The position numbers and the translations under genes were made by a program. A model generated the notes under the pieces. It was not told the origin of the DNA. It did not search any database and saw nothing but the letters and a program-made list of their open reading frames with translations. This document shows, one piece after another, positions 22,652-42,550 of a stretch of 64,000 nt of DNA (positions within the stretch are counted from its first letter, which is position 1; the number at the start of each line of letters is the position of its first letter). The stretch is from Patescibacteria group bacterium. Its GTDB lineage: Bacteria; Patescibacteriota; Dojkabacteria; J137. The stretch spans positions 267,288 to 331,287 of the forward strand of contig CAUJCN010000002.1 in assembly GCA_963169855.1 (NCBI GenBank), in the 5' to 3' direction.

Positions 22652-24598
22652 CTATAAAGTCCAAGTCGAAAGATTTCTAAATCTTGACTCTAAAGAGTTA
22701 ACATCTTTTAGATCCATGTTATCGATTCTTTTATTAGCGTAGTAAATGAATTCAGGATGATACAGGAATACAACAGGTGCATCGTCTGCTAACAACGCTT
22801 GAAATTCCAAGTAGCTATCTTTTCTTCTTTCTCTATCTTCTCTAGGATCCAACTTCCTTGCAGTTTCCAATATATTATCTACTTTCGAAACTCTTATCAC
22901 TGTCCTATTTCCATTGGCGTCTTCTCCAACTTGAACAGTTTCAACGCTTCCTTTATATCCTGATAAGTTTAATCCTGGAGTTTTTTCCTGACTGCTATGG
23001 AACAGTTCGTACCTATCTGGATCGATAAAAGTGTTCATTCCGTATAGAATTACATCGAAAAGCCTTGGTGACAAATATTGGTTGTTAATCTCTTCCAATG
23101 ACCAACCTGCAGGTGCATTTGCTCCATTTTGTTGACCCGGAATCTCCCTTCTATCGATCACAACTTTTACCCCTATTTGTTCTAGATCTCTTTGAATGCT
23201 TCTTCCAACATTTACTCTATCAAAACTATCCACGAAGAAAAGATTAAACGACATTAATTCTCCCGCTGAATTTGTTCTATATTCATCTCCATTTCTAAAT
23301 TTCCAATCAGTTGCATCTAAAAGTTCCGAAGCCTTTGCTTTATTGTAAGTTGCCCAACCCGCTGCAGGATTAAAGAATTCAGACTTGGAGGAAATTGGAC
23401 CTAGAGCCTCCTCTCCTGCTCCCTGCAGAGCATTCTCTACTAATTCTTGCCTATTAATTGCGTAAGAAATCGCTTTTCTAACATTAGTATCCAGCAAGAA
23501 ACTCGGACCAATTGAAGTTCCATCCGGTTTTTTCCTCAAATTAAAATACAACCCCCAGAATTGATTTACCAAAACTGGGCTGTTAAATTGCTTAATATTG
23601 TTAAATCTATCTATATCTTGATTGTACTGAGTGGTGGACGCTGCAAATGTATGAATAGCTCCAGTTTCTAACGCGACTATAGCTTCTTCGAAAGTTTTAA
23701 ACATTCTGAATTGGATTTTTGAGAATGTCATTGTTTCTGGCTGATAGTAATTTTGATTGAAATCCAATGTAACAACGCTGCTATCAATAGATGCAAATCT
23801 ATATTTTCCTGTCCCTACTGGTTCTCTGAACAAGCTTGGCTGAGCTGTATCAATTACTGCAATTGTGATATCTCGTGCTCGGTGTTCTGGAATTATTTTG
23901 ACAGAGATCAGCTCCAAGAAGTTGGACAAAATTGGGTTGTCGCTTGTTTGATTACATGAAGTTCCATCTGCAGTTCCTCTAGTACAAATTCTAATCGTAT
24001 AATCGTCAACGATTTCCCACCTCATCTGCTTGATAGCTTTAATATATGCTTCATCTCTATTTTCAATCGAAGATAATAACTCTAAAGTTCTAGCAACATC
24101 TTTTGATGTAAAAGGAATTCCATCATGCCACCTGACGTTTTTTCTTAAATTAAACTGATAGTCAGCTCCTTCTCTAAATCTAATGACTTCTTCAGCTAGA
24201 ACATTGGTGATCTTAGGTGTCCAAGTTCCTTCCTCAGGCTGGTCGTATTCGAATCTTATTAATGGCTCGTAGACAAGTTCTGTAATATCTCTTTCTAGTT
24301 GAACTCCTGATGGAATAAGTGGATTAATTCTATTAAGTTTTTGTAGTGCTCCGTTAGAGTCAGAACCCATAATAACTCCTTCTACTAAGAATGTATTATC
24401 AGATCTAACAACAGTAAATGAGAATCCTCCAGCGATAACAACAATAAGTATTGCTGAAATCACATGAGATTTTGGAGAAAATTTTTTATAGAAGGCTTCG
24501 AATCGATTAAAATATACAACAAGGTAGTCTGGATAATTCCACACCAATTCTCTGATCGAATATAGAGTTTTTTCTATTCTTGATAGTATTTTAACCAT
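22652..24598 (-). CDS. ABC transporter substrate-binding protein, family 5 (peptide/nickel-type)
   Basis: 648 aa. N-terminal TM anchor. SBP_bac_5-like body. Confidence 0.65.
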   Translation of the reverse strand: MVKILSRIEKTLYSIRELVWNYPDYLVVYFNRFEAFYKKFSPKSHVISAILIVVIAGGFSFTVVRSDNTFLVEGVIMGSDSNGALQKLNRINPLIPSGVQLERDITELVYEPLIRFEYDQPEEGTWTPKITNVLAEEVIRFREGADYQFNLRKNVRWHDGIPFTSKDVARTLELLSSIENRDEAYIKAIKQMRWEIVDDYTIRICTRGTADGTSCNQTSDNPILSNFLELISVKIIPEHRARDITIAVIDTAQPSLFREPVGTGKYRFASIDSSVVTLDFNQNYYQPETMTFSKIQFRMFKTFEEAIVALETGAIHTFAASTTQYNQDIDRFNNIKQFNSPVLVNQFWGLYFNLRKKPDGTSIGPSFLLDTNVRKAISYAINRQELVENALQGAGEEALGPISSKSEFFNPAAGWATYNKAKASELLDATDWKFRNGDEYRTNSAGELMSFNLFFVDSFDRVNVGRSIQRDLEQIGVKVVIDRREIPGQQNGANAPAGWSLEEINNQYLSPRLFDVILYGMNTFIDPDRYELFHSSQEKTPGLNLSGYKGSVETVQVGEDANGNRTVIRVSKVDNILETARKLDPREDRERRKDSYLEFQALLADDAPVVFLYHPEFIYYANKRIDNMDLKDVNSLESRFRNLSTWTL

Positions 24599-24824
24599 TT
24601 GTTAATGCGATCGCTATTGCAAGTGCGGCAAATAGAAATCCCAAAACTAAAGTAGAATTGTAAAGTAATGCTTCTAAACCTCTTCGAGATCTGTAGGATT
24701 CTCCTCCTGAAGTTCCCCCGAAAACTGTTCCAAGCCCTCCGTTTCTATTCTGCATTAAAATGCTGATGGAAAGAAGGAAAGCAACTACTGCTTCTGCGTA
24801 TTTAAATATAGTATTAATATCCAT
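24591..24824 (-). CDS. secG: preprotein translocase subunit SecG
   Basis: 77 aa with two TM helices. 'LLSISILMQNRNGGLGTVFGGTSGGESYRSRRG' matches the SecG consensus. Confidence 0.75.
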   Translation of the reverse strand: MDINTIFKYAEAVVAFLLSISILMQNRNGGLGTVFGGTSGGESYRSRRGLEALLYNSTLVLGFLFAALAIAIALTNG

Positions 24825-24906: not shown

Positions 24907-24981
24907 TTAAATACAAAAAGTCCTTGAAATGATTTTTAAAATCTATATGATATCTATTAGGTTAATTTTTGCACTTTTAAC

Positions 24982-25377
24982 TTGGAAAAGCACTACAACG
25001 AAAAAACTAAACGTTCATGGGTTCTATGGACACTTGTAATTATAATTTTAGGCATCTTAGCTTTCTTCCTTTTACGACCAAATAACGTAATCATCAAAGG
25101 TAAAATCTTACCTAATCAGCAAGGGAATTTCACGTCTGGATATTATGATTTTAGGATTAAAGTCGAAAGCAAAGATGTAGAGAAAGAGCAAAAAACTTAT
25201 TTTGTTTCTGATCATTCAGATATTTCTGTAGACTCGCAAGGAAGGTTCGAAATTTCTCAAGAGATTCCACGAGGAATAGATAAATCTGTAGCTGCTGATC
25301 TGATTGTTTGTTACTCCTCTACAGCAACAAATAGACCAGATGGAATTACTCGTGATACCGAAAGTGTTGATACCTGA
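24982..25377 (+). CDS. signal-anchor ORF, probably the N-terminus of the giant surface protein, separated from it by one in-frame TGA
   Basis: TTG start. 'KTKRSWVLWTLVIIILGILAFFLL' is a positively charged n-region plus hydrophobic core. It ends at TGA 25375-25377, and the next codon (25378) opens the 2499-aa ORF in the same frame. Confidence 0.5.
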   Translation: MEKHYNEKTKRSWVLWTLVIIILGILAFFLLRPNNVIIKGKILPNQQGNFTSGYYDFRIKVESKDVEKEQKTYFVSDHSDISVDSQGRFEISQEIPRGIDKSVAADLIVCYSSTATNRPDGITRDTESVDT

Positions 25378-28300
25378 TTGAATTCAGAACCAGAAATTTA
25401 CGATACTAATCTTTGTGCTATTGATTTTAGTTCTACAGCTCCAAACAATCTACTTACAGAAATAATAGGTGTAAGACAAGTTTTGGTTTCTGGAGTTTGT
25501 AATGGCGTAAATCAGGATGCGCCTGCAGGACCGGATGAGGATGAACAGACTCTATCATTTAATCCATTAACAAACACTTTATCAATTTTGAATGGAAATT
25601 CTGTAGTTATTCCTTTAGGAACAGGTACCACTGTTCAAAATAATTCATACCCTACAAATATTTCAAATCCAATTTCTGGATTAACTCAAGTAAATACTGG
25701 TAACGGATTGATGGGAGGCCCAATTACTTCTTCAGGGACAATCGAAGTTGATGCGCCAACTTGTGCTGGAACAGATAAACTTCAATGGAATGGAACAGCC
25801 TTTGTATGTTCTCCTGATATTATGGGGGGTGGAGTAAACAGCGTTACTGCAAGTGGACCAATTCTATCTTCAGGAGGAACTACCCCAAATATTAGTTTAG
25901 CCGCTTGTCCTGCTGGACAGTCTTATGTACACGATGGATCGAACTGGGTTTGTCAGGCTGCACCTACTGCGATAACTGTACAAAACGGGCTAACCGATAT
26001 AGGAGGTGGAATTGTCGAACTTGGTGGTTCGAACCCACTACTACATGACACTGATATTATAAGTGATGGAAATAACTTGAACTTTACAGGAACAGGAAGA
26101 TTTGGAATTGGAACAAATACACCAGAATTTAAGCTTGATATAGATAACGATGGAGTAAATGGTGGTGGAATAATTGCCAGGGGAACTTTCGGAAGTGGAG
26201 CAACTTTAACAACAAACGGTGCTGGGGAAAGATTGATTTGGGATCCTGCAACAGGAGCATTCAGAGCAGGTGGTGTTTCGGGAAATCAATGGGATTTAGC
26301 AAACATCGGGATATACTCTTTTGCTGCAGGACAAGATAATTTAGTCTCTGGAAGTCATTCAGCTGCTTTTGGCTCTGGAAACAATGTTGCTGGGAACAAC
26401 TCTTTTGCCTCTGGAACAGCTAACTCTGTCCTTTCAAACTTTTCTAACGTATTCGGTTTAGCTAACACAGTCAATGGTGCATTTGCCACAGCTATGGGAT
26501 TATCTTCGAGTGCAACAGGAACTGCAGCCTTTGCATCTGGATCTAGTGCAGCTGCAACAGGGAATAATTCGGTCGCTATCGGAACATCTGTTAGTGCTAC
26601 TGCACAGTCCGCGATTGCAATGGGTGCTAACTCAACTGCATCAGGTCAAAGCAGTACTGCAATCGGATTCTTTAATAACGTCTCTGGTTTTAACTCAACT
26701 GCTGTAGGATTCAACAATCAATTAAACTCGGACAATGGATTTGCATTTGGATATCAAAATACTCAGGCAGCCGCTATAGGTGATGCATACCTTTTTGGTC
26801 TAGCAAACACAGCTAACTCAGGAACTGCTGTTCTTGTTGGTACTAACAACGTGGCAAACGGTGGTACGTCAGTTGTAGCAGGATTTCAGAACACTACTAA
26901 TGGTCAGTTTTCAAATATTTTTGGTAGATTATCTACAACGACTGGAGATTTTTCTAGCGCTTTCGGAACAGGATTAACTTCTCAAGGATATTCTCAAACT
27001 GTTTTAGGAAGATACAATGTAGCCTCAGGTACACAGGGTTCATTAGTCCAAACTGACGAAGGTTTAGTTTTTGGAAATGGTACTTCTCTAGGAAACGAAA
27101 GTAATGCATTCAGTATTAGCTGGCAAGGAAGAACGACAATGTATGGAACTTCCGCAATTGTTCCAGTTTCTCCTGCTGCAGCAGGATCAATCTACTTTGA
27201 TGCAAACACAAATACTTTCCAATGTTCAGAAAATGGTGGCGCATACTTTGACTGTTTTGGTGGATCTGCAGCTGGTGTTACCGATATTAACGGAGAGTCC
27301 GGTTCGATTACATTAAGTGGTGATTCTCCTATCACAGTTGGGAACGTTGGACCTGCTTTTAGTGTAGGGTTGGCTCCTTGTGCTTCTAACCAAACTTATG
27401 TATATGTAGCGGGTAATTGGCTATGTTCTGATGAAAATCTTTTGTATTATGATGAATCAAATAATGTCCCTGGTGTAGAGGCTGCGGCAACAGGAACTAA
27501 TGCAGTCGCCATTGGAGACAGTGCTACTGCAGGCGGTAACTTTTCTACTGCAATTGGTTGGGCTACATCTGCAAATGGTTTTAGATCACAGGCTTATGGA
27601 ATGGCTAATACTGCTGGAGCTACAGCTACAAACTCACAATTGTTTGGGTTTAATAACAATATCGATACCTTCGATACTGTCTCGGTTGGTTGGAGCAATA
27701 CATCTACCAATGGAGGCGAACTCAATATTTTTGGTAGAAACAATACTGTGAACGGGGCTGATTCTACTGTAGTTGGTTATAACAATACGACTACATTTGG
27801 ATTCTCTGAACAGTATTTATATGGAAGTAATCTTACTTCTTCTGCTGACAATACACATGTTTTTGGAAATGGAATAACAAATAATGTTGCTAACTCTTTG
27901 ATGGTTGGACCAAACTCTTCAAATATTCTTTCTATGCTGTCTACAGGAGAAATGGGATTTGGAAATATCGATCCTACAAGTAGAGTTGATATTTCTGGAG
28001 CTCTTACAATGAGAGGTATGCCTGCACCAGGCTTATCACCTTTAGGACAAGGTCGAATATACTTTGATTCTACAGCTAATGAATTCTTATGTTCAGAAAA
28101 TAATGGTGCATATTTTGACTGTTTTGGCGCTGCAGCTGGTGTTACTTCTGTAACTGCTGGTTTAGGAATGGTTAATTCTGGAACAGCTAGTGATCCTATA
28201 CTGGATGTTCAGGCTGTTAATGCAGTAAGAATCGATGCTACTAACGATGCAGTTATGTTTGGAGGACCCGTTAACTCTGGCTTAGCTCCTTTAATTGAAA

Positions 28301-31300
28301 ATACTCAGGTTCCCCAAGCTGGATTTAGTTTAGCGTTCTTAGGAAATACAGCTGGAGACATGTTTGGAATTGGAACTAACTCGACAGGAACGAACCTAAA
28401 TGAAAGGCTGGATGTAGTTGGTAACATAGAAAACATAGCTGATGTTTCATTAAATCCTGAGTTTATTACAACAACTGCCACAGCAAGCAGTCCAACTTCT
28501 ATTCAAGTAGTTGGGAATAGAGCTTATGTTACTAACCAATCTTCAAGTAACATTCAGGCATTTGATGTTTCTGATCCAAGTACTCCAACCTCAGAATACA
28601 TTATTGGAACAAACTCACAGTCACTCAATTTTATAGCTTCTTCTGGAAGATATATTTATGGAGCAGGCCGAACATCGGGGGTTTTCCAGGTAATTGATAC
28701 ATACAATAACGGCGTAGCCTTTAATACAGTCAAGGGAACTCTAGTATTTACAGGATTTCAAATTACAGGTATAGCTCAATCTGGAAACAATGTAATAGTG
28801 ATTTTAGACGATTTAGCTGCTGGGAATAACGACTTTTTAGCTATAGTTGATGTTTCTAACCCTTCATACCCAAGAGAGACTGGAAGAATTGCATTTGGAG
28901 TAAACACCAACCCAAATGCCGTTGATGTCCAAGGTGGAATTGCTTATGTAGCTTTGAGTAGCCCTACAAACCAAGTACGAGCTGTTGATGTAAATGTTAC
29001 AGAAGCTCCTACACTTTACCCAGTCTACAGTGCGCCTATCTGTAATGCATCGAATACAATCAAGGTTTATGGTAAATTTGCATTTGTTGGTTGCGTTGGA
29101 TCTGCGCAAATTTCAATCATTGATATTAGTAACCCTAATGTTGCAGCTCCCGCAACAGTTGCAACTATTAACGCAGGAGGACCAGTTTCTGAAGTAGAAG
29201 TTTCAGGAAGATACTTATTTGCTACTGTTGCTGGAATTGATGAGTTAAGAATGTGGGACATAAGATTACCTTCTTCTCCAACATTGATTGGAAATGTTTC
29301 AACCGGGGGAACAACACCTAGTTCACTTGATGTCTCTGGAAGGCATGTATATGTGACAAACCAAGTAACCAACACAATGGCCGTTATTGATATTCACGGT
29401 ATAGAAACAACTAGCATTCTTGCTCACAGTGTTGAAAGTGGGCAATTAAATGTGGATGGTGAAACTAATTTATTTGGGAGAGTTAACATTGCGAGCAACG
29501 CTTCAGTTGGATCAAACCTACATGTCGGTGGAGATGTTGGAGTCACAGGAAACATTTCGACACTAATAAATGGATCTATGACTCCTTCGCGTATAGGAAA
29601 TTTAGACTTAGCTCCCGGTAACAACACTGACTTTGTTTTAAATGGGAATTATGCTTACATTATAGATCAGACAGGAAGTGCTCTTCGTGTAATCAATATC
29701 AGTAATCCTGCATTGCCTGTTGCTGTTGGAGTTCCTATATCAACTGGCTTAGGTAGTTCTCCAAGAAGTATTGCAATGGCTGGAAGATATGCTTACACAG
29801 CAAACGATAACTCCTCTATTACGATATTTGACATCACTAACCCTAGTGCACCTGTTTTGATATCAACTTTTGCTATACCAACCACTACTGGACTCAGAGA
29901 GATAATTGCAACAGATAGATATCTTTACGCTACAGGATTAACCAGCAATGCTGTGTTTGCAATAGATGTTTCTAACCCACGAGCTCCTCGTATTGTTTCG
30001 ACTGTCACAGTCTGTACTGATCCTACTAACTTGGCAATGCAGGAAAAATATCTTGTAGTGGGTTGTTCTCAGGCAATTGCTGATAATGTACAAATATGGG
30101 ACTACTCCAACATATTATCGCCATCATTTGTTAGCTCAATAAGCGTTGCAGCTCCCGGTCCATTAGCTGTAGTCGATTTAGATATTCAAGGTAATTTTAT
30201 CTATACTGTAACTACAAATGGAATACAAATTCATAATATATCTACTATAACTACTCCTGTTACCGACTTTGCTTCTGGAACTTTTTTTGGTGGAGCTCCA
30301 GTTGTAATGAGCTCCGTTTTAGCAAACGGTAGATACGTTTACGCTACAATGGGAAATGGACCTGCAGGAAATGCTGTTTGGTTTGCAGTAGATATAACAA
30401 GTTCTGTACTTCCTCGAATTGTTTCAGCTACATTCTCAACTACAGCTATGCATAACAGAGCTTTGATTGTTCGAGGTAAGAACGTGTACACTGTTAATAA
30501 CAATCCACTCAGCAACTCAATTGAAATCTTTGACGTTAATGGAGTTGAGACTTCCACTCTTGTTGCACACAGTGCACAGGCTGGGCAGCTCGTTGTTCAA
30601 AATGATGCAAGCATTGTGGGAAATCTAACAGTTGCTGGTGGAACAACTTTTGCGGGAAATGTAGGAGTAAACGGGGATGCAACTATTAATGGGCAGCTAA
30701 ATGTAACAGGAAGAAATCCAGTATCAGTTGGTCTTACGAATGTCGGAATGTCTCCATCGGCCGTTACTACATCAGGAAGATATCTCTACATGGGAAGTTT
30801 CACTGGAGGAAGAATTTTTGATATAAGTGACCCTACAGCTCCAATTTTACTCAGCTCACCTGCTATGCCAACAACTTCGAGGGCAATTATTCAGGGTCAC
30901 TATATTTACACCTCATTTGGAACGACTTTTACACTATCATCAATCGCAAATCCGAATACCCCTGTAGTTCTATCGAATCTGACTTTGTCTGTCGCTAACA
31001 GGGCTTTTGATATCCAAGGTAAATATGCCTACATGATGAAGTCTAATGGTGAAATGGATATTATTGATATTTCATCAACACAAACAATGAATATAATCTC
31101 TTCTACTATGATAAGTCCTGGAACTATGAATGACATTAAAGTTAGAGGAAGATATGTATATATTACCCACCCAACTTCAACATCGCTGATTATCTATGAT
31201 ATTAGCAACCCTTTAGCCCCAGTATCTGTTGGAAGTGTAGTTCTACCAAGCGTAGGAAATAGGATTGCATTACGGGAATCATACGCATATGTAACACATA

Positions 31301-32877
31301 CTAATGGATTCTACACAGTCGACATTACTAATCCAGCAACTCCTACTTTAGTACATACTGTCGCGGGCTTAGGAGGAGCTCCAGTAACTCCAGAAATCAG
31401 TGGAAAAAACCTGTATCTATTCGGAACAACTGGTGTTGGATTAAGAGTTTACGACATATCTAGTCCTGCTGTACCACAGTTTGTCGGAACAACTTCAACA
31501 GGATTTCAAATCCCTTCAGGAAAGATTCAAGGAAGATATGCCTATGCTTCTGACACAACAAACACCGCACTTCGGGTATTAGATCTTGGTGGAGCTTACG
31601 TTCAGCAGTTAGAAGCTAGCGGAGTTGAAACCGATAGTGTTGTGGCAAGAGGAGATGTTACTGCAAATAGCGGTATATTTAAGAACGGAATTAGTGTAAG
31701 TAACTCAATGAATGTACTAGGTGATTCAAATGTTAGAGGGAAACTAACAGTTGGATTAAATAATGCTGGTCCGGCTTCCGGAGTATTCCAAGAAGGATCT
31801 GGATACGCATTCTCTGTAATGGCTGGACCAAACCCAGTATCTACAGAAAACGCGATTGCCGCGTTTACAAACCTAAACCCAGCCAACTCTTTGAACAATA
31901 CCGTAATGAGACTAAGCATGGGAGCTACTCCTACTGGAGGAAACACAAACCCAAGATTTATTAGATTCTTTGCAGGATTATCTACAGGAGACACAGGAGG
32001 AACTGCAGTTGGAAGTATTAGTTTGAATGGTGCTTCCGGAGTATCATTTAATACATCTGGAGCTGACTTTGGAGAATACTATACAATCGTTGACGATGCA
32101 CAGGTTGGGGAAATTGTAGCTGTAACAAGAGATGGAAACCGAAGAGGAGTAAAAGGAGAAAAGATCCTAGGAGTTGTTTCTGATACTGCAGGTTTCGTTG
32201 GAAACAGTATCGAATATACTTCTGAAGGAGAAATTCCAGCTGATCGAAAGATTGTAGGATTGTTAGGACAAATGAAAGTTAAAGTAAACGGCGAGTCTGG
32301 AGCAATTGAAGCAGGAGACTTTGTAGCACTATCCTCTACTGCTGGAGTTGGAATGAAAGCTACTGCAAACGGAATGGTATTAGGGAAAGCTATGGAATCA
32401 TCAACTTGCGATACAGCTGGGTGCGAAAGCACAATTATGATTGCTGTACAGCCAACTTGGTATGTTCCAGAATTAGAGGGATTATTAATGGGAGAATCGA
32501 ATGGTGACTCTGAAGAATCAGATACACCTATATCATCTATTTCTATGGAACAAATTGTAAGTTACTTAACCGAAAATACCTTAGAAATTTTAAAGACAAA
32601 CAACTTAACTGTAAACTCAAGATTCAATTTAAACGGCAGTCTTTACCTTAGTGGAAACAATACTGGAAGAACTGTAATTCCTGTTGGTCAAACATCTGTT
32701 ACAGTTAACTTTGCTTCGGTGTTCGAAGGTTTGCCAAATGTTGTATTAACTCAGAACAGCTTTATTGAGGGAAAGTACAGAGTAACTAATGTAACAAATA
32801 CTGGATTTACAATTGAACTAGAAAATATACAGGTTTCTGATGTAGAATTTACGTGGTTAGGTTATGGTACATTATGA
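25378..32877 (+). CDS. giant cell-surface protein: Hep_Hag (YadA-head-like) repeats + three LVIVD beta-propeller blocks + phage-tail-fibre-like intramolecular chaperone domain + H-type-lectin-like C-terminus
   Basis: 2499-aa uninterrupted ORF, Gly/Ser/Thr/Asn-rich.
- Hep_Hag-like 'NSVAIGTSVSATAQSAIAMGANSTASGQSSTAIGFFNNVSGFNSTAVGFNN', seen twice.
- Duplicated module '(S/R)IYFD..TN.F.CSENGGAYFDCFG' at 27185-27265 and 28056-28133.
- More than 20 LVIVD-type blades, e.g. 'GRYAYTANDNSSITIFDITNPSAPVLIST'.
- Three homologous spacer modules, e.g. 'HGIETTSILAHSVESGQLNVDG', 'NGVETSTLVAHSAQAGQLVVQ' and 'GGAYVQQLEASGVETDSVVARG'.
- C-terminal 'GADFGEYYTIVDDAQVGEIVAVTRDGNRRGVKGEKILGVVSDTAGFVGNS' is Peptidase_S74/G2-like.
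- C-terminal 'FASVFEGLPNVVLTQ...YRVTNVTNTGFTIELEN...FTWLGYG' is H_lectin-like. Confidence 0.85.
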   Translation: MNSEPEIYDTNLCAIDFSSTAPNNLLTEIIGVRQVLVSGVCNGVNQDAPAGPDEDEQTLSFNPLTNTLSILNGNSVVIPLGTGTTVQNNSYPTNISNPISGLTQVNTGNGLMGGPITSSGTIEVDAPTCAGTDKLQWNGTAFVCSPDIMGGGVNSVTASGPILSSGGTTPNISLAACPAGQSYVHDGSNWVCQAAPTAITVQNGLTDIGGGIVELGGSNPLLHDTDIISDGNNLNFTGTGRFGIGTNTPEFKLDIDNDGVNGGGIIARGTFGSGATLTTNGAGERLIWDPATGAFRAGGVSGNQWDLANIGIYSFAAGQDNLVSGSHSAAFGSGNNVAGNNSFASGTANSVLSNFSNVFGLANTVNGAFATAMGLSSSATGTAAFASGSSAAATGNNSVAIGTSVSATAQSAIAMGANSTASGQSSTAIGFFNNVSGFNSTAVGFNNQLNSDNGFAFGYQNTQAAAIGDAYLFGLANTANSGTAVLVGTNNVANGGTSVVAGFQNTTNGQFSNIFGRLSTTTGDFSSAFGTGLTSQGYSQTVLGRYNVASGTQGSLVQTDEGLVFGNGTSLGNESNAFSISWQGRTTMYGTSAIVPVSPAAAGSIYFDANTNTFQCSENGGAYFDCFGGSAAGVTDINGESGSITLSGDSPITVGNVGPAFSVGLAPCASNQTYVYVAGNWLCSDENLLYYDESNNVPGVEAAATGTNAVAIGDSATAGGNFSTAIGWATSANGFRSQAYGMANTAGATATNSQLFGFNNNIDTFDTVSVGWSNTSTNGGELNIFGRNNTVNGADSTVVGYNNTTTFGFSEQYLYGSNLTSSADNTHVFGNGITNNVANSLMVGPNSSNILSMLSTGEMGFGNIDPTSRVDISGALTMRGMPAPGLSPLGQGRIYFDSTANEFLCSENNGAYFDCFGAAAGVTSVTAGLGMVNSGTASDPILDVQAVNAVRIDATNDAVMFGGPVNSGLAPLIENTQVPQAGFSLAFLGNTAGDMFGIGTNSTGTNLNERLDVVGNIENIADVSLNPEFITTTATASSPTSIQVVGNRAYVTNQSSSNIQAFDVSDPSTPTSEYIIGTNSQSLNFIASSGRYIYGAGRTSGVFQVIDTYNNGVAFNTVKGTLVFTGFQITGIAQSGNNVIVILDDLAAGNNDFLAIVDVSNPSYPRETGRIAFGVNTNPNAVDVQGGIAYVALSSPTNQVRAVDVNVTEAPTLYPVYSAPICNASNTIKVYGKFAFVGCVGSAQISIIDISNPNVAAPATVATINAGGPVSEVEVSGRYLFATVAGIDELRMWDIRLPSSPTLIGNVSTGGTTPSSLDVSGRHVYVTNQVTNTMAVIDIHGIETTSILAHSVESGQLNVDGETNLFGRVNIASNASVGSNLHVGGDVGVTGNISTLINGSMTPSRIGNLDLAPGNNTDFVLNGNYAYIIDQTGSALRVINISNPALPVAVGVPISTGLGSSPRSIAMAGRYAYTANDNSSITIFDITNPSAPVLISTFAIPTTTGLREIIATDRYLYATGLTSNAVFAIDVSNPRAPRIVSTVTVCTDPTNLAMQEKYLVVGCSQAIADNVQIWDYSNILSPSFVSSISVAAPGPLAVVDLDIQGNFIYTVTTNGIQIHNISTITTPVTDFASGTFFGGAPVVMSSVLANGRYVYATMGNGPAGNAVWFAVDITSSVLPRIVSATFSTTAMHNRALIVRGKNVYTVNNNPLSNSIEIFDVNGVETSTLVAHSAQAGQLVVQNDASIVGNLTVAGGTTFAGNVGVNGDATINGQLNVTGRNPVSVGLTNVGMSPSAVTTSGRYLYMGSFTGGRIFDISDPTAPILLSSPAMPTTSRAIIQGHYIYTSFGTTFTLSSIANPNTPVVLSNLTLSVANRAFDIQGKYAYMMKSNGEMDIIDISSTQTMNIISSTMISPGTMNDIKVRGRYVYITHPTSTSLIIYDISNPLAPVSVGSVVLPSVGNRIALRESYAYVTHTNGFYTVDITNPATPTLVHTVAGLGGAPVTPEISGKNLYLFGTTGVGLRVYDISSPAVPQFVGTTSTGFQIPSGKIQGRYAYASDTTNTALRVLDLGGAYVQQLEASGVETDSVVARGDVTANSGIFKNGISVSNSMNVLGDSNVRGKLTVGLNNAGPASGVFQEGSGYAFSVMAGPNPVSTENAIAAFTNLNPANSLNNTVMRLSMGATPTGGNTNPRFIRFFAGLSTGDTGGTAVGSISLNGASGVSFNTSGADFGEYYTIVDDAQVGEIVAVTRDGNRRGVKGEKILGVVSDTAGFVGNSIEYTSEGEIPADRKIVGLLGQMKVKVNGESGAIEAGDFVALSSTAGVGMKATANGMVLGKAMESSTCDTAGCESTIMIAVQPTWYVPELEGLLMGESNGDSEESDTPISSISMEQIVSYLTENTLEILKTNNLTVNSRFNLNGSLYLSGNNTGRTVIPVGQTSVTVNFASVFEGLPNVVLTQNSFIEGKYRVTNVTNTGFTIELENIQVSDVEFTWLGYGTL

Positions 32878-33560
32878 ACAAAACTCCAACGCTTACATTA
32901 AACTCAAAAAAGCCTTCATCGATGCCTCCATCAAAAGGTTCAAGAAATCTTAATCAAATTAGAAACTTGTTCATTTTGGTTTTAGTTTTTATTCTTGGAG
33001 GAGCAACTATTTATTTTTACCTGAACTCAAGAAGTACAGGAAATGGAAACCTATCTGATTCTGAAATTCAGGTAATAAAAGAGAAGCTTACAAAGAATAT
33101 TATTGTCGAAGGAATTGAAAATTATGATGTTGGTTTGATTAAAGATATTGAAGCTCTCAAAGAAAGTAATCCACTGTTTTTTAAGAATGCGGAAAATGGT
33201 GATGCATTGATAGTATCTACTACACAAGCAATTATTTTTCGACCTGGTAACGAAATGATTATTAATGTTGGTCCAATTACAGATGATAGATCAAAAGTTA
33301 GAATAGAACTTAGAGCTACTTCGGATTCTGCAAACTTAGACGTAATTGAAAGAACAATTGAAGAATCAAATTCAAACTTTATAGTTGTAGGAAAATCAAC
33401 AACTACCACTACAGGAATAACCCCTGGGATTGTTCTTCAGTCTTACTTCGACGATGCTGGAATTAATCAACTTTCTTCTATATTGAATTTACAAATCAAG
33501 GATTCACTGCCTCAAGAAGAAACAAACTTCTCTAGTGCAGATATTTTGATTTATCTATAA
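32874..33560 (+). CDS. membrane-anchored protein translationally coupled to the giant surface protein gene
   Basis: ATG 32874 overlaps the TGA stop 32875-32877 (ATGA). 'MNKTPTLTLNSKKPSS...IRNLFILVLVFILGGATIYFYL' is a signal anchor followed by an extracytoplasmic domain. The track ORF starts 21 nt earlier, inside the giant ORF. Confidence 0.55.
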   Translation: MNKTPTLTLNSKKPSSMPPSKGSRNLNQIRNLFILVLVFILGGATIYFYLNSRSTGNGNLSDSEIQVIKEKLTKNIIVEGIENYDVGLIKDIEALKESNPLFFKNAENGDALIVSTTQAIIFRPGNEMIINVGPITDDRSKVRIELRATSDSANLDVIERTIEESNSNFIVVGKSTTTTTGITPGIVLQSYFDDAGINQLSSILNLQIKDSLPQEETNFSSADILIYL

Positions 33561-33561
33561 A

Positions 33562-34017
33562 CTACACTTGAATACCGTAAGCCAATTTTAATTCTACTGG
33601 TAGATTGTAATCTGCTATCCAGACTCTTCTGTCTCTTTTTTCGATTTTTACAGGTAATTTTAGAGGTTCTGGTGTACCAAATTTAAATAGTGTTGCGTAT
33701 CTTTTCCCTGACATTCTTTTAGTAACTCTTTCAACATGAGCTTCATCTACCATCCCTATTTCTTCCATAACATTCAAAAAAATATCTCTAATTTGATCAG
33801 GATGTATGATTTCAAGAAATTCTACTTCTGTGACTGGAATTCTGCCAACAACTGGACCTCCGGTTTCTTTAATGTAAATATAATCTCCAGCATTCAATTT
33901 TTTATAAGGAGCAATTCTGTTATAACTCCATTTAATATCTAAAGTTTTCTCTCCGTTCATCATAAGATCTATGTAATCTCTGCTTCGATTTCTGGAATAA
34001 ATTGCTAAATGATTCAT
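33562..34017 (-). CDS. ASCH (PUA-like) domain protein
   Basis: 151 aa. 'DLMMNGEKTLDIKWSY...LNAGDYIYIKETGGPVVGRIPVTEVE' resembles the ASCH beta-barrel (GxKxxExR-like motif). Confidence 0.45.
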   Translation of the reverse strand: MNHLAIYSRNRSRDYIDLMMNGEKTLDIKWSYNRIAPYKKLNAGDYIYIKETGGPVVGRIPVTEVEFLEIIHPDQIRDIFLNVMEEIGMVDEAHVERVTKRMSGKRYATLFKFGTPEPLKLPVKIEKRDRRVWIADYNLPVELKLAYGIQV

Positions 34018-34018
34018 A

Positions 34019-34264
34019 CTATTTGAACTTAATATTATCTTGTATTATTTTAATTCTTTCGTGCAACTCTTGCATACGAATTGAAAAATCTACTGCAGAT
34101 CTATTTTCTACGCTTATACTAGCCATTGCATTCCCTATTTGACATGACTTATGAATATCGTGACCTTCTAATAAACCTGAAACAAATCCCGATCTCCACA
34201 TATCTCCTGCTCCAGTTGGGTCCACAACTCTTGTATTGAAAGCAGAATTTCCATCGTATTAGTC
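34019..34264 (-). pseudogene. remnant of a PfkB-family carbohydrate kinase (C-terminal ~80 codons only)
   Basis: Contains PfkB signature 2, '...NSAFNTRVVDPTGAGDMWRSGFVSGLLEGHD...' (DTxGAGD). Only about 33 nt separate it from the next gene, so the N-terminal ~220 aa of a normal PfkB kinase are absent. Confidence 0.55.
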
Positions 34265-34837
34265 TTCAAAAATACGTCTGTACTCTTTTGCAACCAATCT
34301 TCTCATTAACTCGGCTTTGCTTATATCAAGTTCTTCACAAAGTTGTTCTAGTTGTTTTAGAGTTGTTGATCTTAAAATAATGTTGAATCTTTTTTTTGGA
34401 GGTTCAAGATTTTCTATGTATTTTTCCAATACGAGTGCCAAATCTTTTACTGTCTTATAGGTTTTTACTGTAATCATATCTTCACCATATGAAAGCAAGT
34501 TATCTGGGAAATTTTTATACTCTTCTTCTCTTATGACACAAATGACAGGAACTTTATTTTCCAATGCCATTATTGTTTGCAAGAAAACAGTCCTCGATTT
34601 TTCAGAGAACTCCGCTACAATAAAATCAACAGATCTTATAAGTTTATTTGTCCCATCTACAAGTGTTTTCATTTTTGCTTCGAGATCGCTTTGCTCCATT
34701 GGATAATTATCAACTAACCACGGCTGATACATTTCTAATCCCATACCTCTTAAAGTAGAAGCAATAGTTTTGTATGTATCGATATTTCTATCTAGGTTTT
34801 TAATTGTAGCTACTAAAGCAACCTTATTTGGTCTCAT
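34259..34837 (-). CDS. nucleoside 2-deoxyribosyltransferase-like domain fused to C-terminal ribbon-helix-helix (CopG/Arc-like) domain
   Basis: 192 aa. The N-terminus 'KVALVATIKN...LVDGTNKLIRSVDFIVAEFSEKSRTVFLQTIMALENKVPVICV' resembles the NDT/flavodoxin-like nucleotide-binding fold. The C-terminus 'FNIILRSTTLKQLEQLCEELDISKAELMRRLVAKEY' is an RHH motif. Confidence 0.4.
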   Translation of the reverse strand: MRPNKVALVATIKNLDRNIDTYKTIASTLRGMGLEMYQPWLVDNYPMEQSDLEAKMKTLVDGTNKLIRSVDFIVAEFSEKSRTVFLQTIMALENKVPVICVIREEEYKNFPDNLLSYGEDMITVKTYKTVKDLALVLEKYIENLEPPKKRFNIILRSTTLKQLEQLCEELDISKAELMRRLVAKEYRRIFED

Positions 34838-35645
34838 CTTTATAAAAGTAATTAAATATTAGATAGTTATAGAGTCTATGTGGAAGAAATCTTTTAGCCC
34901 ATAAGATTCTTCTGTCTCTTTTCTGAAAAAAGTAGTTATCTCTTGGATTATTCATTAACCAGATTAACTCTCTAGCAGCTTGCTCTGAAGTAACATAATC
35001 CTTAAAAAAGAATCTAAAACGTCTTTTCCAAGATTCATATAAAGTTGAGTAAGCTGTTTGTGCAATGTTACCACTTTCCTTAATATTTTTTCCAAAACTG
35101 CTATAAACACTTCCTGGCGAAAATATACTGATTTGAATTCCGAAACCTCTTACTTCATTTCTTAGTACGTTACTTATCTTATCCAAAGCACTTTTCGTTG
35201 CTGCGTAAAATCCCAGAGTTGGTGTATCGACAACTGATCCAATCGAACTCACATTAATAATATGTCCGCTATTACTTTCTCTCATTGAAGGTAGTACTTT
35301 TTGAATTAGCTGAATGGGTGCAATAACATTAACGCTTAATTGCGACTGCATTTCAGCAAGATCCATATCCTCTACAGTACTACGAAAGGCAAAACCTGCA
35401 TTGTTTATTAAAATATCTATTTTGTTATAATCTTTTAATACTTTATCTAGATTTTTAGAAGCTCCAACAATATCATTCAGGTCGATTTCAAAGAATTTAT
35501 AATTCTTTACTGAAAATTCTTTTATATTGTTCCTTCCTATTCCTAGAAATAAGTAGTCAGAAAATTGCGAACACGCAATCCTTATGAAAGATTCACCTAT
35601 TCCACTACTTACTCCTGTTATTAATACAACTTTTGAGTAACTCAT
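34824..35645 (-). CDS. short-chain dehydrogenase/reductase (SDR)
   Basis: 'VVLITGVSSGIGES' (TGxxxGIG) and 'YAATKSAL' (YxxxK). Confidence 0.8.
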   Translation of the reverse strand: MSYSKVVLITGVSSGIGESFIRIACSQFSDYLFLGIGRNNIKEFSVKNYKFFEIDLNDIVGASKNLDKVLKDYNKIDILINNAGFAFRSTVEDMDLAEMQSQLSVNVIAPIQLIQKVLPSMRESNSGHIINVSSIGSVVDTPTLGFYAATKSALDKISNVLRNEVRGFGIQISIFSPGSVYSSFGKNIKESGNIAQTAYSTLYESWKRRFRFFFKDYVTSEQAARELIWLMNNPRDNYFFQKRDRRILWAKRFLPHRLYNYLIFNYFYKDETK

Positions 35646-36574
35646 AAACTTTTAGCTAGATCGTAAAGTATTCCACTTGAAATATTATTATTACTTGGAA
35701 CAATTATTCTACAATTTAGATACTCTGAAATCTGAAATATATTCATTAAGGCTTTATCAGCCGCCCACATATAGTATGGTTCTTTTTCATACATTGGCAT
35801 TCTATCTTCGTAGGAAAGTGCGATAATCTTATCGTACAAAGGTCTTAGCTTTGCTACATCTATTGAGTAAGGATGATCTCCTTGCAATCCTTCTCTATCT
35901 TCCAAATCCACATTCATAGTTTCTAGAAATTCAATAATGTTTGTAGTTCCATAAACAATCACCTTTGGGTTTCTTTTAGATTCACCTAAACCTTTTAGTT
36001 CCGTTCTAACATAGTCAATCGCTGTTTGTAATTCTTCTGCAGCAGGATGATGACTTTCTGAAAATTCTTCCTGCATAAAATAGGTTCCGCTTTTGAATAA
36101 GTATGTTTCGTGAATCTTGGTATTTTCTCCTATTACAACTTGAACACTTCCTCCTCCAATATCTGCTACAGCTATCTCTTGATCTGGAAAGTCTTTAGAA
36201 ACAGATTCAAATAAAAGTCTTGCTTCATCTTTTTGAGATAGTACTTCTAATTTAATTCCAGTAGATTCTTCTATTCTATTTAAAACTTCTTCAGAATTAG
36301 TGGCTTTTCTAATCGCTTCAGTAGTAACTGCTAAATACTTCTCTACTTTATATTCAGTCATTTTGTCTTTGAACATGTTCAAAGCTTCTATTGTTTTAAG
36401 GATTGATTTCTCGATAATCATGTTATTCGTTTTAGGTAAATCTCTACCCATTACGGTTAATTGTTTATCTTTGTACAGCACTTTAGAATTAAAGTTTTCA
36501 TCGAATTCTCGAATTTCGAATTTCGATTTTAGAGTCCCAACATCAATGACTGCGACAATTTTTTTAGATTCCAT
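35642..36574 (-). CDS. Ppx/GppA family phosphatase (exopolyphosphatase / pppGpp phosphohydrolase-like)
   Basis: 310 aa with an actin-like ATPase fold: 'VAVIDVGTLKSKFEI' (phosphate 1) and 'IAVADIGGGSVQVV' (phosphate 2). Confidence 0.6.
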   Translation of the reverse strand: MESKKIVAVIDVGTLKSKFEIREFDENFNSKVLYKDKQLTVMGRDLPKTNNMIIEKSILKTIEALNMFKDKMTEYKVEKYLAVTTEAIRKATNSEEVLNRIEESTGIKLEVLSQKDEARLLFESVSKDFPDQEIAVADIGGGSVQVVIGENTKIHETYLFKSGTYFMQEEFSESHHPAAEELQTAIDYVRTELKGLGESKRNPKVIVYGTTNIIEFLETMNVDLEDREGLQGDHPYSIDVAKLRPLYDKIIALSYEDRMPMYEKEPYYMWAADKALMNIFQISEYLNCRIIVPSNNNISSGILYDLAKSL

Positions 36575-37865: not shown

Positions 37866-38551
37866 TCAAAAATATTAATATTTAAGAAGTTAGCATCGTA
37901 TTTAGCTTTAAAGAAAACAGCGTTGATATTATCGGAAAACTCTCTATCAATCAGGTCATCGTCTCCTATGTAACTTACAGATTTGAATTTAGTTTTCCCA
38001 GTACTTTTTAATAACTGATCAAAAGCAAATCGATTCGGTTTATCTACCAATACTCTATTCTTATACATATCTTCTTCTCCAATAATTATTTCGAAAAAGT
38101 TAATTAATCCTGTTTTATACAAATACGCTGAAATGATTGTTTTCCTTGATGATGAAATTATTGCCAAAACATTTTCAGTATCTTCAACCAAAGTTTCTAG
38201 AAAATCAATAATTCCATTTCCCAATCTTGCAACTGCGTTTTCAGTCTTATCTTTAAGAATTGATGTGATAGTATGGCTTTCTTTTATATCCATAATTCCT
38301 TTAGCGATACTATTAATATCGGTTGTGTTAAAGTAACTTATAAGACTCTCGAAATCTTCTCTGCTTCTTGTTATTCCAGATTGGATTCTTCTATAGCTAT
38401 CGAATCTTTCTTTAAGACCTTCTTCATAAGGAAGAAATGCATTAAGTCCTCCGTGGATATTTAATTGTTTCATTGTCTTTTCCCAACCTTGTCGGTGGTA
38501 GTCAGAACTTTTTGCGATTGTTCCATCAAAATCGAATATTATTAGGTTCAT
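37862..38551 (-). CDS. HAD-superfamily hydrolase (phosphatase)
   Basis: 'MNLIIFDFDGTIAKS' is HAD motif I (DxDGT). 'SYIGDDDLID' is a motif-IV-like element. Confidence 0.75.
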   Translation of the reverse strand: MNLIIFDFDGTIAKSSDYHRQGWEKTMKQLNIHGGLNAFLPYEEGLKERFDSYRRIQSGITRSREDFESLISYFNTTDINSIAKGIMDIKESHTITSILKDKTENAVARLGNGIIDFLETLVEDTENVLAIISSSRKTIISAYLYKTGLINFFEIIIGEEDMYKNRVLVDKPNRFAFDQLLKSTGKTKFKSVSYIGDDDLIDREFSDNINAVFFKAKYDANFLNINIFE

Positions 38552-39855: not shown

Positions 39856-39974
39856 AGGAAATATACCTTCTTATACATTTTTTGTATAAAATTTTTTATG
39901 TATTATACATGCTTTAGAAATATATGCAATACGCAAATCCTTTAAATACTGCAATTTTCGTAAATTTGGAAGAT

Positions 39975-41679: not shown

Positions 41680-41721
41680 TTTTAATTTTAATCACCCTAA
41701 TTATACATTAATTGTATAAAA

Positions 41722-42420: not shown

Positions 42421-42550
42421 TTTATTTGGTCCTAAATATTAGCATACATATTTTACATAGAGGAATTGATTTATTTATAATAACCACAAGGTTTTTTGAC
42501 GTTTTCTCGATCTGAGTTATAATTCCTATATATCTGTTATTAAATAGGAT

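What the first reader, a model, noticed from the sequence alone, without database searches (positions are those of the whole stretch)
25378..32877. Giant (~2500 aa) surface protein with a chimeric adhesin / tail-fibre architecture
One ORF combines modules that are normally found in different kinds of surface organelles. The features seen directly in the translation are listed below.
- Two blocks of YadA-head-like Hep_Hag repeats (about aa 300-520 and 700-830).
- A duplicated Cys-containing module 'IYFD..TN.F.CSENGGAYFDCFG' (27185-27265 and 28056-28133).
- Three blocks of LVIVD beta-propeller blades (about 28440-29400, 29600-30540 and 30720-31590), each of ~7-8 blades. They are separated by three homologous spacer modules ('...E(T/S)..L.AHS...GQL.V.....G...').
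- A C-terminal segment 'GADFGEYYTIVDDAQVGEIVAVTRDGN...KILGVVSDTAGFVGNS'. This resembles the auto-cleaving intramolecular-chaperone domain of phage tail-fibre/tailspike and pre-neck-appendage proteins (Peptidase_S74/G2-like).
- An H-type-lectin-like end ('FASVFEGLPNVVLTQ...VTNVTNTGFTIELEN').

In an organism with a reduced, probably episymbiotic (CPR-like) genome, such a protein is the obvious candidate for host attachment. The fusion of an adhesin-type head, propellers and a phage-fibre maturation domain with a carbohydrate-binding tip has, to my knowledge, not been characterised.
Basis: partly seen in the sequence, partly recalled or inferred. Interest (0 to 1): 0.85.

Follow-up and report, generated by a model that had tools for sequence, protein, structure and literature searches.

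The report
Interrupted giant fibre-adhesin gene, Saccharibacteria
A 2,631-codon gene of a Saccharibacteria-like bacterium encodes a membrane-anchored surface fibre built like a phage tail fibre (YadA-type repeats, three seven-bladed propellers, a self-cleaving chaperone domain, a lectin-like end) and is a plausible host-attachment device; in this strain an in-frame stop after codon 131 cuts it off from its only export signal, and similar architectures are common in uncultivated bacteria.

Summary
The domain calls hold. The 2,499-aa ORF 25378-32877 scores for LVIVD (1e-51), YadA_head, Peptidase_G2 IMC and, just under threshold, H_lectin. AlphaFold gives a seven-bladed propeller and an H-lectin-like end.

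The ORF is only part of the gene. The gene starts at 24982 with a 131-codon segment that carries the only membrane anchor. That segment is separated from the large ORF by an in-frame TGA at 25375-25377. Two orthologues have a Cys codon there (TGC, TGT). TGA is an ordinary stop in this window, there is no SECIS-like hairpin, and two further assemblies match the window exactly. In this strain the gene is therefore most likely a recently inactivated or weakly expressed allele. A second orthologue carries an independent frameshift.

The chaperone domain is the phi29-gp12 (Asp/Glu, G2) type, not the Ser/Lys S74 type. Its predicted cleavage site, A2229|D2230, lies upstream of the lectin-like domain, so that domain would be cut off rather than form a permanent tip.

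The C-terminal cassette has 3,173 relatives. YadA_head, then LVIVD, then IMC recurs in other giant proteins. The closest characterised analogue is the Bdellovibrio MAT fibre family. I rate this a new variant of a known kind, of moderate interest.

The parts
24924..24951 (+). Sigma-70-like promoter match (TTGAAA-16-TATGAT) upstream of the true gene start
   Evidence: 10 of 12 matches. The count does not exceed shuffled controls, so this is weak evidence. No promoter-like site precedes 25378.
24982..32877 (+). Whole gene as defined by orthologues: 2,631 codons including one in-frame TGA
   Evidence: P0002 (L001:398-7432) aligns continuously from residue 6 across the TGA, 76% identical over the first 470 aa. 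pN is about 0.2 and pS about 0.7 in both parts.
24982..25377 (+). N-terminal segment (131 codons), called as a separate ORF. It holds KTKR plus a 19-residue hydrophobic helix (WVLWTLVIIILGILAFFLL), which I read as a signal anchor, followed by a juxtamembrane domain.
   Evidence: The helix occupies about 25018-25074. Pfam gives no hit.
25375..25377 (+). In-frame TGA at codon 132, where orthologues have Cys (TGC in L001, TGT in L004)
   Evidence: L002 and L003 are identical to the window. The 131-aa product is seen on 7 contigs. There is no stable downstream hairpin (z = 0.47) and no SECIS model match.
25378..26274 (+). Stalk region with repeated Cys-pair motifs (C..G....W/Y.G..W/F.C); no Pfam family
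   Evidence: Translation. It is 73-87% identical to P0002.
26275..27177 (+). YadA-head-like 14-residue repeat block 1
   Evidence: Pfam YadA_head. NCBIfam YadA_autotrans gives a partial match at aa 347-507. Lag-14 autocorrelation is 0.30.
27189..27260 (+). Cys module copy 1 (IYFD..F.CSENGGAYFDCFG)
   Evidence: Direct repeat family D2; translation.
27262..28131 (+). 290-aa cassette (Cys-pair motif, YadA block 2, Cys module 2). It is absent from orthologue P0002/L001 and present in L004.
   Evidence: There is a single 290-residue gap in the alignment. The blastn coordinates agree. The best Pfam YadA_head stretch is at aa 704-728.
28056..28127 (+). Cys module copy 2
   Evidence: D2: 78% DNA identity to copy 1, spacing 867 nt.
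28465..29394 (+). LVIVD beta-propeller 1, 7 blades
   Evidence: Blade cores at aa 1059, about 1105, 1154, 1200, 1245, 1290 and 1334. Pfam LVIVD and SBP56 propeller hits.
29395..29586 (+). Spacer 1 (GIETTSILAHSVESGQLNV...)
   Evidence: The monomer model has low pLDDT here, which would be expected if the segment folds only in an oligomer. That reading is an inference.
29587..30534 (+). LVIVD beta-propeller 2, 7 blades
   Evidence: AlphaFold model: 28 strands, pLDDT 80-93. Foldseek matches 7-bladed propellers, E = 2.5e-13. The best LVIVD stretch is at aa 1463-1498.
30535..30744 (+). Spacer 2 (GVETSTLVAHSAQAGQLVV...)
30745..31593 (+). LVIVD beta-propeller 3, 7 blades
   Evidence: Blade cores at aa about 1812, about 1853, 1893, 1937, about 1980, 2022 and 2065.
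31594..32064 (+). Spacer 3 and pre-chaperone stalk. This would be the distal end of the mature fibre if cleavage occurs.
   Evidence: It is conserved in the relatives found with the C-terminal cassette (query positions 1-60).
32065..32076 (+). D2230-F-G-E2233, the predicted G2-type autocleavage motif (cleavage A2229|D2230)
   Evidence: It aligns with residue 1 (DFAEYF) of the cleaved phi29 gp12 fragment 3GQH. D and E are invariant in alignment A2. My D-x-x-E pattern is found in most of the 150 best relatives.
32065..32562 (+). Intramolecular chaperone domain, Peptidase_G2 / phi29 gp12 type (about 165 aa)
32650..32874 (+). H-type-lectin-like beta-sandwich
32874..33560 (+). Conserved downstream partner ORF: 228 aa, one TM helix, start overlapping the giant gene's stop (ATGA)
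   Evidence: It is 72% identical to the equivalent gene in L001, which has the same overlap. No family hit.

Best explanation
The locus 24982-32877 is one gene for a giant cell-surface fibre of a Saccharibacteria (CPR) bacterium. In this strain it carries a recent nonsense mutation.

In its intact form, as in orthologue P0002, the protein would be inserted in the cytoplasmic membrane by an N-terminal signal anchor and would project outward. From the membrane outward it would carry:
- a Cys-rich stalk;
- one or two YadA-head-like beta-roll blocks;
- three seven-bladed LVIVD propellers strung on short spacer segments;
- a final stalk;
- a phi29-gp12-type (Peptidase_G2) intramolecular chaperone;
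- an H-type-lectin-like domain.

By analogy with phage tail spikes and Bdellovibrio MAT fibres, the chaperone would nucleate trimerisation from the C-terminus and then cleave itself off at A2229|D2230, using the conserved Asp/Glu pair. That would leave a trimeric fibre with up to nine propellers as ligand-binding knobs. It would also release, or retain non-covalently, a trimeric chaperone-lectin module. The likely role is binding to surface glycans or proteins of the host bacterium.

In this window codon 132 (Cys in orthologues) is TGA. Translation from the real start should therefore end after a 131-aa membrane stub. The 2,499-aa remainder lacks any export signal. The allele is off, or at most weakly expressed by read-through or re-initiation.

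Shown: gene continuity in orthologues, domain identities, propeller fold, conservation of the cleavage motif, and reproducibility of the TGA. Inferred: trimer formation, cleavage, surface display, host binding, and the functional consequence of the stop.
For: Gene structure:
- The upstream ORF ends in a TGA in frame with the large ORF.
- P0002/L001 reads straight through with TGC and L004 with TGT.
- Both parts show the same purifying-selection signature: pN about 0.2, pS about 0.7, dN/dS about 0.09-0.19.
- TGA ends 15 of 52 ORFs in the window, so it is an ordinary stop here.
- There is no SECIS-like fold or Rfam hit.
- L002 and L003, assembled from two other sequencing runs, are 100% identical over 13.5 and 11.8 kb. 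The 131-aa product occurs on 7 contigs.

Domains:
- Pfam hits.
- 3 x 7 blades.
- AlphaFold propeller, pLDDT 80-93, with Foldseek matches to 7-bladed propellers.

Chaperone:
- The alignment starts at residue 1 of the cleaved gp12 fragment.
- D and E are invariant in A2 and widely conserved among relatives.

Lectin-like end.

Cellular rather than viral context:
- SecG, MraZ and an oligopeptide-binding protein are neighbours.
- SecG, the giant gene and the 228-aa gene are syntenic in L001; SecG and the giant gene also in L004, whose contig ends inside the gene.

Analogy: Bdellovibrio MAT fibres are surface-located trimers with C-terminal autoproteolytic chaperones and variable tips that bind prey glycans (PMC10769870).

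Saccharibacteria need several surface adhesins for epibiotic growth (PMC10633639).
Against: - No experimental or expression data exist for this protein or any close relative.
- Trimerisation and cleavage are inferred only. The monomer model of the chaperone is poor (pLDDT about 50 over the IMC).
- The residue before the scissile bond is Ala, whereas phi29 has Ser (PMC4690869).
- Placing a lectin-like domain after the cleavage site is awkward for a 'binding tip' model.
- Many relatives have two tandem IMC-like domains or long sequence after the IMC. This suggests that some of these domains may not cleave.
- The 2,499-codon frame after the TGA is intact. That fits a very recent mutation, but it would equally fit continued use.
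- LVIVD propellers have no established ligand.
Confidence: 0.6

Rival explanations
1. The TGA is decoded rather than terminating, so the strain makes the full-length anchored fibre. Decoding could be selenocysteine, near-cognate Cys/Trp read-through, or another programmed recoding event. TGA aligned with Cys in orthologues is the classic selenoprotein signature.
For: TGA aligns with Cys in two orthologues. The downstream 2,499 codons are intact. The same allele recurs in several assemblies.
Against: - There is no stable hairpin after the TGA: z = 0.47, and 135 of 200 shuffles fold as well.
- No SECIS family matches even at E <= 10.
- No tRNA-Sec is found in the window.
- TGA is a normal stop here.
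- The following base is U. From memory of E. coli data, that is not a leaky context.
- From memory, Sec machinery is not known in Saccharibacteria.
- A second orthologue is disrupted by a frameshift, which recoding of TGA cannot explain.
Confidence: 0.1
2. The protein is a structural envelope or S-layer-type component, or a general environmental or biofilm adhesin, rather than a device for recognising the host bacterium.
For: From memory, LVIVD repeats are typical of archaeal and bacterial surface-layer-type proteins. The YadA_head + LVIVD + IMC architecture also occurs in non-CPR metagenomic bacteria such as Bacteroidota, Eisenbacteria and WOR-1. No host-specific feature was found.
Against: An essential envelope component would not be expected to carry early disruptive lesions in two of three lineages. 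Orthologues of the N-terminal anchor domain are very rare: three lineages across the collections searched. Such a narrow distribution fits a strain-specific interaction factor better than a core envelope component.
Confidence: 0.2
3. It is a prophage or phage-derived tail-fibre gene and belongs to a virus, not to the cell.
For: The chaperone is of phi29 gp12 type. The C-terminal fold resembles tailspike and pyocin fibre tips. NCBI names relatives 'tail fiber domain-containing protein'.
Against: The flanking genes are cellular housekeeping genes, and no phage gene lies next to it. The protein has an N-terminal membrane anchor. PHROGs returns only two weak families of unknown function, both matching the propeller region. 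Synteny with SecG is conserved in three genomes. GC skew and GC content change only modestly.
Confidence: 0.03

Closest known systems
Bdellovibrio bacteriovorus MAT (mosaic adhesive trimer) fibres, e.g. Bd3182 (PMC10769870)
   Same: Both are cell-encoded, surface-located, tail-fibre-like mosaic proteins of a bacterium that lives on other bacteria. Both have a long beta-rich fibre, swappable modules and a C-terminal autoproteolytic chaperone. In the MAT family the tips bind prey glycans.
   Different: - MAT chaperones are S74 type (SDxxxK) and terminal. Here the chaperone is G2 type (D-x-x-E) and is followed by a lectin-like domain.
- MATs have a cleaved signal peptide plus a conserved ~130-aa N-terminal domain. 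Here there is a TM signal anchor and an unrelated N-terminus; this was not compared directly.
- MATs have no LVIVD propellers.
- The organism here is a monoderm-like CPR bacterium.
Bacteriophage phi29 pre-neck appendage gp12 (MEROPS G2; PDB 3GQH, 3SUC)
   Same: The chaperone domain is homologous. The alignment begins exactly at the first residue of the released fragment (DFAEYF versus DFGEYY). Asp and Glu are conserved, and the domain length is similar (about 165 aa).
   Different: gp12 is a virion tailspike with a beta-helix enzyme body, and its chaperone is the C-terminus. Here the P1 residue is Ala rather than Ser, an extra domain follows, and the protein is anchored to a cell membrane.
Trimeric autotransporter adhesins (YadA family)
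   Same: Both have 14-residue YadA-head (Hep_Hag) repeats in long blocks.
   Different: There is no YadA_anchor beta-barrel and no YadA_stalk, so no autotransport. The anchor is N-terminal, and trimerisation is presumably driven by the IMC instead.
'Tail fiber domain-containing proteins' of Patescibacteria and other uncultivated bacteria (e.g. P0009, P0020, P0003, P0035)
   Same: The module order is the same: YadA_head, then LVIVD propeller, then IMC. P0020 also has a G2-type motif followed by an H-lectin-like domain.
   Different: These proteins are uncharacterised. Outside the repeats identity is only 26-38%. Many use S74 rather than G2. None shares the N-terminal anchor domain.
H-type lectins (Helix pomatia agglutinin, discoidin I/II, SLL-2)
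   Different: The sequence score is just below Pfam's threshold. Sugar-binding residues were not checked. The same fold also forms phage tailspike and R-pyocin fibre tip domains.

Membership tests
LVIVD repeat beta-propeller (PF08309) | Repeats score above the Pfam gathering threshold | tested here: met
   172.3 bits against 20.2, 9 stretches.
LVIVD repeat beta-propeller (PF08309) | Repeats fold into closed propellers | tested here: met
   The AlphaFold model of the middle block has 28 strands (7 blades) at pLDDT 80-93. Foldseek TM is 0.6-0.8 to 7-bladed propellers. Blocks 1 and 3 have 7 blade motifs each but were not modelled.
Peptidase_G2 / phi29 gp12-type intramolecular chaperone (PF11962) | Sequence match above threshold | tested here: met
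Peptidase_G2 / phi29 gp12-type intramolecular chaperone (PF11962) | Conserved Asp at the new N-terminus and Glu three residues later (D-x-x-E) | tested here: met
   D2230-F-G-E2233 aligns with DFAE of gp12. Both residues are invariant in A2 and common among relatives. The catalytic role of these residues is taken from memory of MEROPS and Xiang et al. 2009.
Peptidase_G2 / phi29 gp12-type intramolecular chaperone (PF11962) | Trimer-dependent autocleavage and release of the chaperone | not testable with these tools
   This needs a recombinant fragment analysed by SDS-PAGE or mass spectrometry.
Peptidase_G2 / phi29 gp12-type intramolecular chaperone (PF11962) | The chaperone is the C-terminal end of the protein | tested here: not met
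   About 100 further residues follow it, including an H-lectin-like domain. The same holds in 41 of the 150 best relatives.
Peptidase_S74 (endosialidase-type IMC) | PF13884 match and the Ser-Lys motif SDxxxK | tested here: not met
   There is no PF13884 hit at E <= 1 and no SD.R.K motif.
Trimeric autotransporter adhesin (YadA family) | YadA_head repeats | tested here: met
   46.6 bits against 25. Residue period of 14.
Trimeric autotransporter adhesin (YadA family) | C-terminal YadA_anchor beta-barrel (PF03895) and stalk (PF05662) | tested here: not met
   Neither family appears in the Pfam scan at E <= 1. NCBIfam YadA_autotrans scores 30.9 bits against a cut-off of 750.
H-type lectin (PF09458) | Sequence match above the gathering threshold | tested here: inconclusive
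   23.8 bits against 24. The orthologue P0002 scores 20.7.
H-type lectin (PF09458) | H-lectin beta-sandwich fold | tested here: met
H-type lectin (PF09458) | Carbohydrate (GalNAc) binding at the trimer interface | not tested
   Binding-site residues were not compared, and no trimer model was made.
Bdellovibrio MAT fibre superfamily | Conserved ~130-aa beta-rich N-terminal domain after the signal peptide | not tested
The N-terminal region here has no Pfam hit and has almost no homologues.
Bdellovibrio MAT fibre superfamily | Trimeric beta-helix/prism fibre with a variable C-terminal tip, with or without an autoproteolytic chaperone | tested here: inconclusive
   A chaperone domain is present, but of G2 type. 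The spacers are low-confidence in the monomer model, and the trimer was not modelled.
Selenoprotein gene | In-frame UGA aligned with Cys, plus a SECIS hairpin immediately downstream | tested here: not met
   The UGA/Cys alignment is met. The hairpin is not: z = 0.47, and no SECIS model matches.

The most novel reading that the evidence does not exclude
Saccharibacteria and other CPR bacteria may build host-recognition fibres by the phage tail-spike assembly route. A G2-type intramolecular chaperone would trimerise a membrane-anchored polypeptide carrying three propellers per chain, nine per fibre, and then cut itself off. That would liberate a soluble or loosely bound trimeric lectin as a second, diffusible host-binding factor. 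Expression of the fibre would be switched off in natural populations by early nonsense or frameshift lesions, and its length would be varied by recombination between the conserved Cys modules.
Probability: 0.2. Interest if true: 0.7.

Novelty: new variant of a known kind. Interest (0 to 1): 0.45.

Why it matters
How ultrasmall episymbiotic CPR bacteria recognise their host is largely unknown beyond type IV pili and a few lectin-like surface proteins (PMC10633639, PMC11623550). This locus adds a concrete, testable candidate class: membrane-anchored, tail-fibre-like mosaics with propeller knobs and a self-processing chaperone-lectin cassette. The cassette has thousands of uncharacterised relatives in metagenomes.

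The corrected gene model also matters for annotation. The giant ORF alone would be mis-annotated as an exported adhesin, although in this strain it is cut off from its only export signal. Two independent early lesions among three lineages hint at on/off variation of a costly or counter-selected surface structure.

Tried and rejected
1. Alternative genetic code (4 or 25). Rejected: TGA ends 15 of 52 ORFs, several of them with overlapping starts.
2. Selenocysteine. No hairpin, no Rfam SECIS hit and no tRNA-Sec in the window.
3. Sequencing error at the TGA. Rejected: two other assemblies are base-identical, and the 131-aa product is on 7 contigs.
4. Absent; the domain is G2 type.
5. The search for homologous proteins with the 330-aa C-terminal cassette and with the 403-aa N-terminus returned nothing useful. 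The tool appears to favour proteins of similar length. The exhaustive HMMER search replaced the first of these.
6. The metagenome-contig scan for N-terminal orthologues found none. The genome-contig scan found only L004.
7. Diversity-generating retroelement target. No template/variable repeat pair exists in the window.
8. The SBP56 and methanethiol-oxidase hits are generic propeller similarity far below the cut-off (23.4 bits against 650 for the NCBIfam model), not evidence of enzyme function.
10. Literature searches for LVIVD or tail-fibre-type adhesins in Saccharibacteria found nothing.
Full report
**Observation**

The ORF 25378-32877 (+) exists and encodes 2,499 aa.

- LVIVD: 172.3 bits against a cut-off of 20.2, nine stretches.
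- YadA_head: 46.6 bits against 25.
- Peptidase_G2 IMC: 29.7 bits against 25, aa 2212-2281.
- H_lectin: 23.8 bits against 24, aa 2441-2494, so marginally below threshold.
- The SBP56 hit, and the methanethiol-oxidase hit in NCBIfam, are generic propeller similarity.

The YadA-like blocks show the expected 14-residue period.

The two Cys modules are a true repeat, 78% identical over 72 nt at 27189-27260 and 28056-28127.

Blade motifs recur about every 45 aa, seven per block in three blocks.

An AlphaFold model of aa 1340-1795 (spacer, propeller 2, spacer) gives 28 strands at pLDDT 80-93. It superposes on seven-bladed propellers. The spacers are low-confidence in the monomer.

**The gene is longer than the ORF and is interrupted**

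The start at 25378 is only the first TTG after a stop. The preceding 131-codon ORF (24982-25377) is in the same frame and ends in TGA at 25375-25377.

This upstream ORF carries a basic stretch followed by a 19-residue hydrophobic helix (KTKR-WVLWTLVIIILGILAFFLL). That helix is the only export or anchor signal in the locus. The 2,499-aa ORF begins with a hydrophilic sequence.

The closest homologue is P0002 (2,344 aa, ENA contig L001). It is 76% identical over the first 470 residues and reads continuously across this point, with TGC (Cys) where the window has TGA. A second orthologue, L004, comes from a Candidatus Saccharibacteria MAG and has TGT.

Both parts of the gene show the same purifying-selection pattern: pN about 0.2 and pS about 0.7, with synonymous sites saturated.

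TGA terminates 15 of 52 ORFs in the window, so the code is standard. The RNA after the TGA does not fold better than shuffled sequence (z = 0.47). No SECIS model matches, and no tRNA-Sec is present in the window.

The stop is not an assembly accident. Contigs assembled from two other runs are base-for-base identical over 13.5 and 11.8 kb. The 131-aa product is recorded on seven contigs.

The most economical reading is a single Cys-to-opal point mutation. It separates the membrane anchor from the rest of the protein. It is probably recent, because the remaining 2,499 codons are intact.

L004 carries an independent 1-nt deletion near codon 466, and its downstream frame stays open for more than 550 codons to the contig end. 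Two of the three known lineages therefore have early lesions. This could reflect on/off variation or relaxed selection. With three lineages, and a possible assembly error in L004, it is only a lead.

**The chaperone domain**

A sequence search of the PDB aligns DFGEYY (aa 2230-2235) with residue 1 (DFAEYF) of 3GQH, the released C-terminal autochaperone of the phi29 pre-neck appendage gp12. It also gives a weaker match to another tailspike chaperone domain.

The Asp and the Glu three residues later are invariant in an alignment with four distant relatives. My D-x-x-E pattern recurs in most of the 150 best database relatives.

There is no S74 hit and no SDxxxK motif. From memory, that type is classed in MEROPS as a glutamic peptidase. 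[quoted passage not shown]

The predicted cleavage site is A2229|D2230.

**The C-terminal end**

- SLL-2.

Tip domains of phage tailspikes and R-pyocin fibres also match.

This domain lies after the predicted cleavage site. If cleavage occurs, a fragment of about 270 aa, containing the chaperone and the lectin-like domain, leaves the fibre. The mature distal end would then be the stalk and propeller 3.

**How common is this**

An exhaustive HMMER search with the last 330 aa found 3,173 cluster representatives at E <= 1e-3 and 618 at E <= 1e-10.

Among the best 150, 41 have an H-lectin-like domain after the chaperone, many have two tandem chaperone-like domains, and many continue for hundreds of residues.

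In the whole-protein search, YadA_head + LVIVD + IMC recurs in:
- P0003 (G2 motif);
- P0020 (G2 motif plus an H-lectin-like domain);
- P0009, a Patescibacteria 'tail fiber domain-containing protein' of S74 type;
- P0035.

Other hits from Bacteroidota, Micavibrio and Magasanikbacteria combine YadA_head with S74.

The architecture is therefore a recurrent, uncharacterised class. By contrast, the N-terminal anchor domain is very rare.

**Context**

The neighbours are cellular: SecG (divergent), an oligopeptide-binding protein, MraZ and a short-chain dehydrogenase. SecG and the giant gene are syntenic in all three genomes; the 228-aa gene is also syntenic in L001 (L004's contig ends inside the giant gene).

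PHROGs gives only weak hits of unknown function. This argues against a prophage gene.

A 228-aa single-TM protein gene overlaps the stop codon (ATGA) in both the window and L001, and the two copies are 72% identical. It is likely a co-translated partner of unknown role.

**Module variation**

Relative to P0002, the window protein has one clean 290-aa insertion, ORF aa 629-918 (27262-28131). It equals one Cys-pair motif, YadA block 2 and the second Cys module.

L004 is closer to L001 in sequence but has the block. L001 therefore probably lost it by recombination between the two Cys modules. This is an inference.

**Mechanism (inferred)**

The intact protein would be Sec-inserted through its N-terminal anchor. 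It would be trimerised from the C-terminus by the G2 chaperone, as in phage spikes, and then autocleaved. The result would be a long trimeric fibre with YadA-like beta-roll segments and three tiers of propellers as binding knobs.

The closest characterised analogue is the Bdellovibrio MAT family. Those are surface fibres with S74 chaperones and variable tips that bind prey glycans (PMC10769870).

In Saccharibacteria the known attachment factors are type IV pili and several lectin-like surface proteins (PMC10633639). I found no paper describing tail-fibre-type adhesins or LVIVD proteins in this group.

**Verdict**

- The gene model needs correction: true start at 24982, in-frame stop at codon 132.
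- The chaperone type is G2, not S74.
- The lectin-like domain is probably not a permanent tip.
- The claimed uniqueness does not hold.

I rate this a new variant of a known kind of system, a cell-encoded tail-fibre-like adhesin. It is of moderate interest, mainly as a testable candidate for CPR host recognition and as an example of natural inactivation.

Noticed in passing
L004:3715-3730 (corresponds to window ~26385): The orthologue in the Candidatus Saccharibacteria MAG CAZYSE010000062.1 has a 1-nt deletion that shifts the frame near codon 466. The new frame stays open for more than 550 codons to the contig end. This is a second, independent early lesion in this gene family, or possibly an assembly error.
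   Followed up: partly
window 27262-28131: A 290-aa cassette (YadA block 2 plus the second Cys module) is present in the window and in L004 but missing from L001/P0002. It is bounded by the two 72-nt Cys-module repeats (78% identical), which suggests length variation by recombination between them.
   Followed up: partly
window 32874-33560: A conserved 228-aa single-pass membrane protein gene has a start that overlaps the giant gene's stop (ATGA). It is 72% identical in L001, with the same overlap. It has no Pfam or NCBIfam match and may be a partner of the fibre.
   Followed up: partly
window 33562-42517: About 9 kb of minus-strand genes lie between the 228-aa gene and the 135/209-aa gene pair at 42551-43587. 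In L001 these two groups are adjacent (L001 8209-9313 aligns to window 42518-43617). This is an insertion, deletion or rearrangement between the two genomes.
   Followed up: no
window 524-668 and 1261-1405: A 145-nt direct repeat, 90% identical, with 737 nt spacing, lies around and inside the ORF 675-1418 (-).
   Followed up: no
relatives P0080, P0088, P0091, P0094, P0113, P0123 and others: Many relatives of the C-terminal cassette carry two tandem G2-type chaperone-like domains. In some, both keep the D-x-x-E motif. Others have the domain far from the C-terminus, with up to 1,800 residues following it. This is hard to reconcile with a simple 'terminal, discarded chaperone' model.
   Followed up: no
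window 24591-24824 (-): secG lies divergently next to the fibre gene in all three genomes (window, L001, L004). The 5' leader just before the TTG start (gttaatttttgcacttttaacTTGGA) is identical in the window and L001.
   Followed up: no
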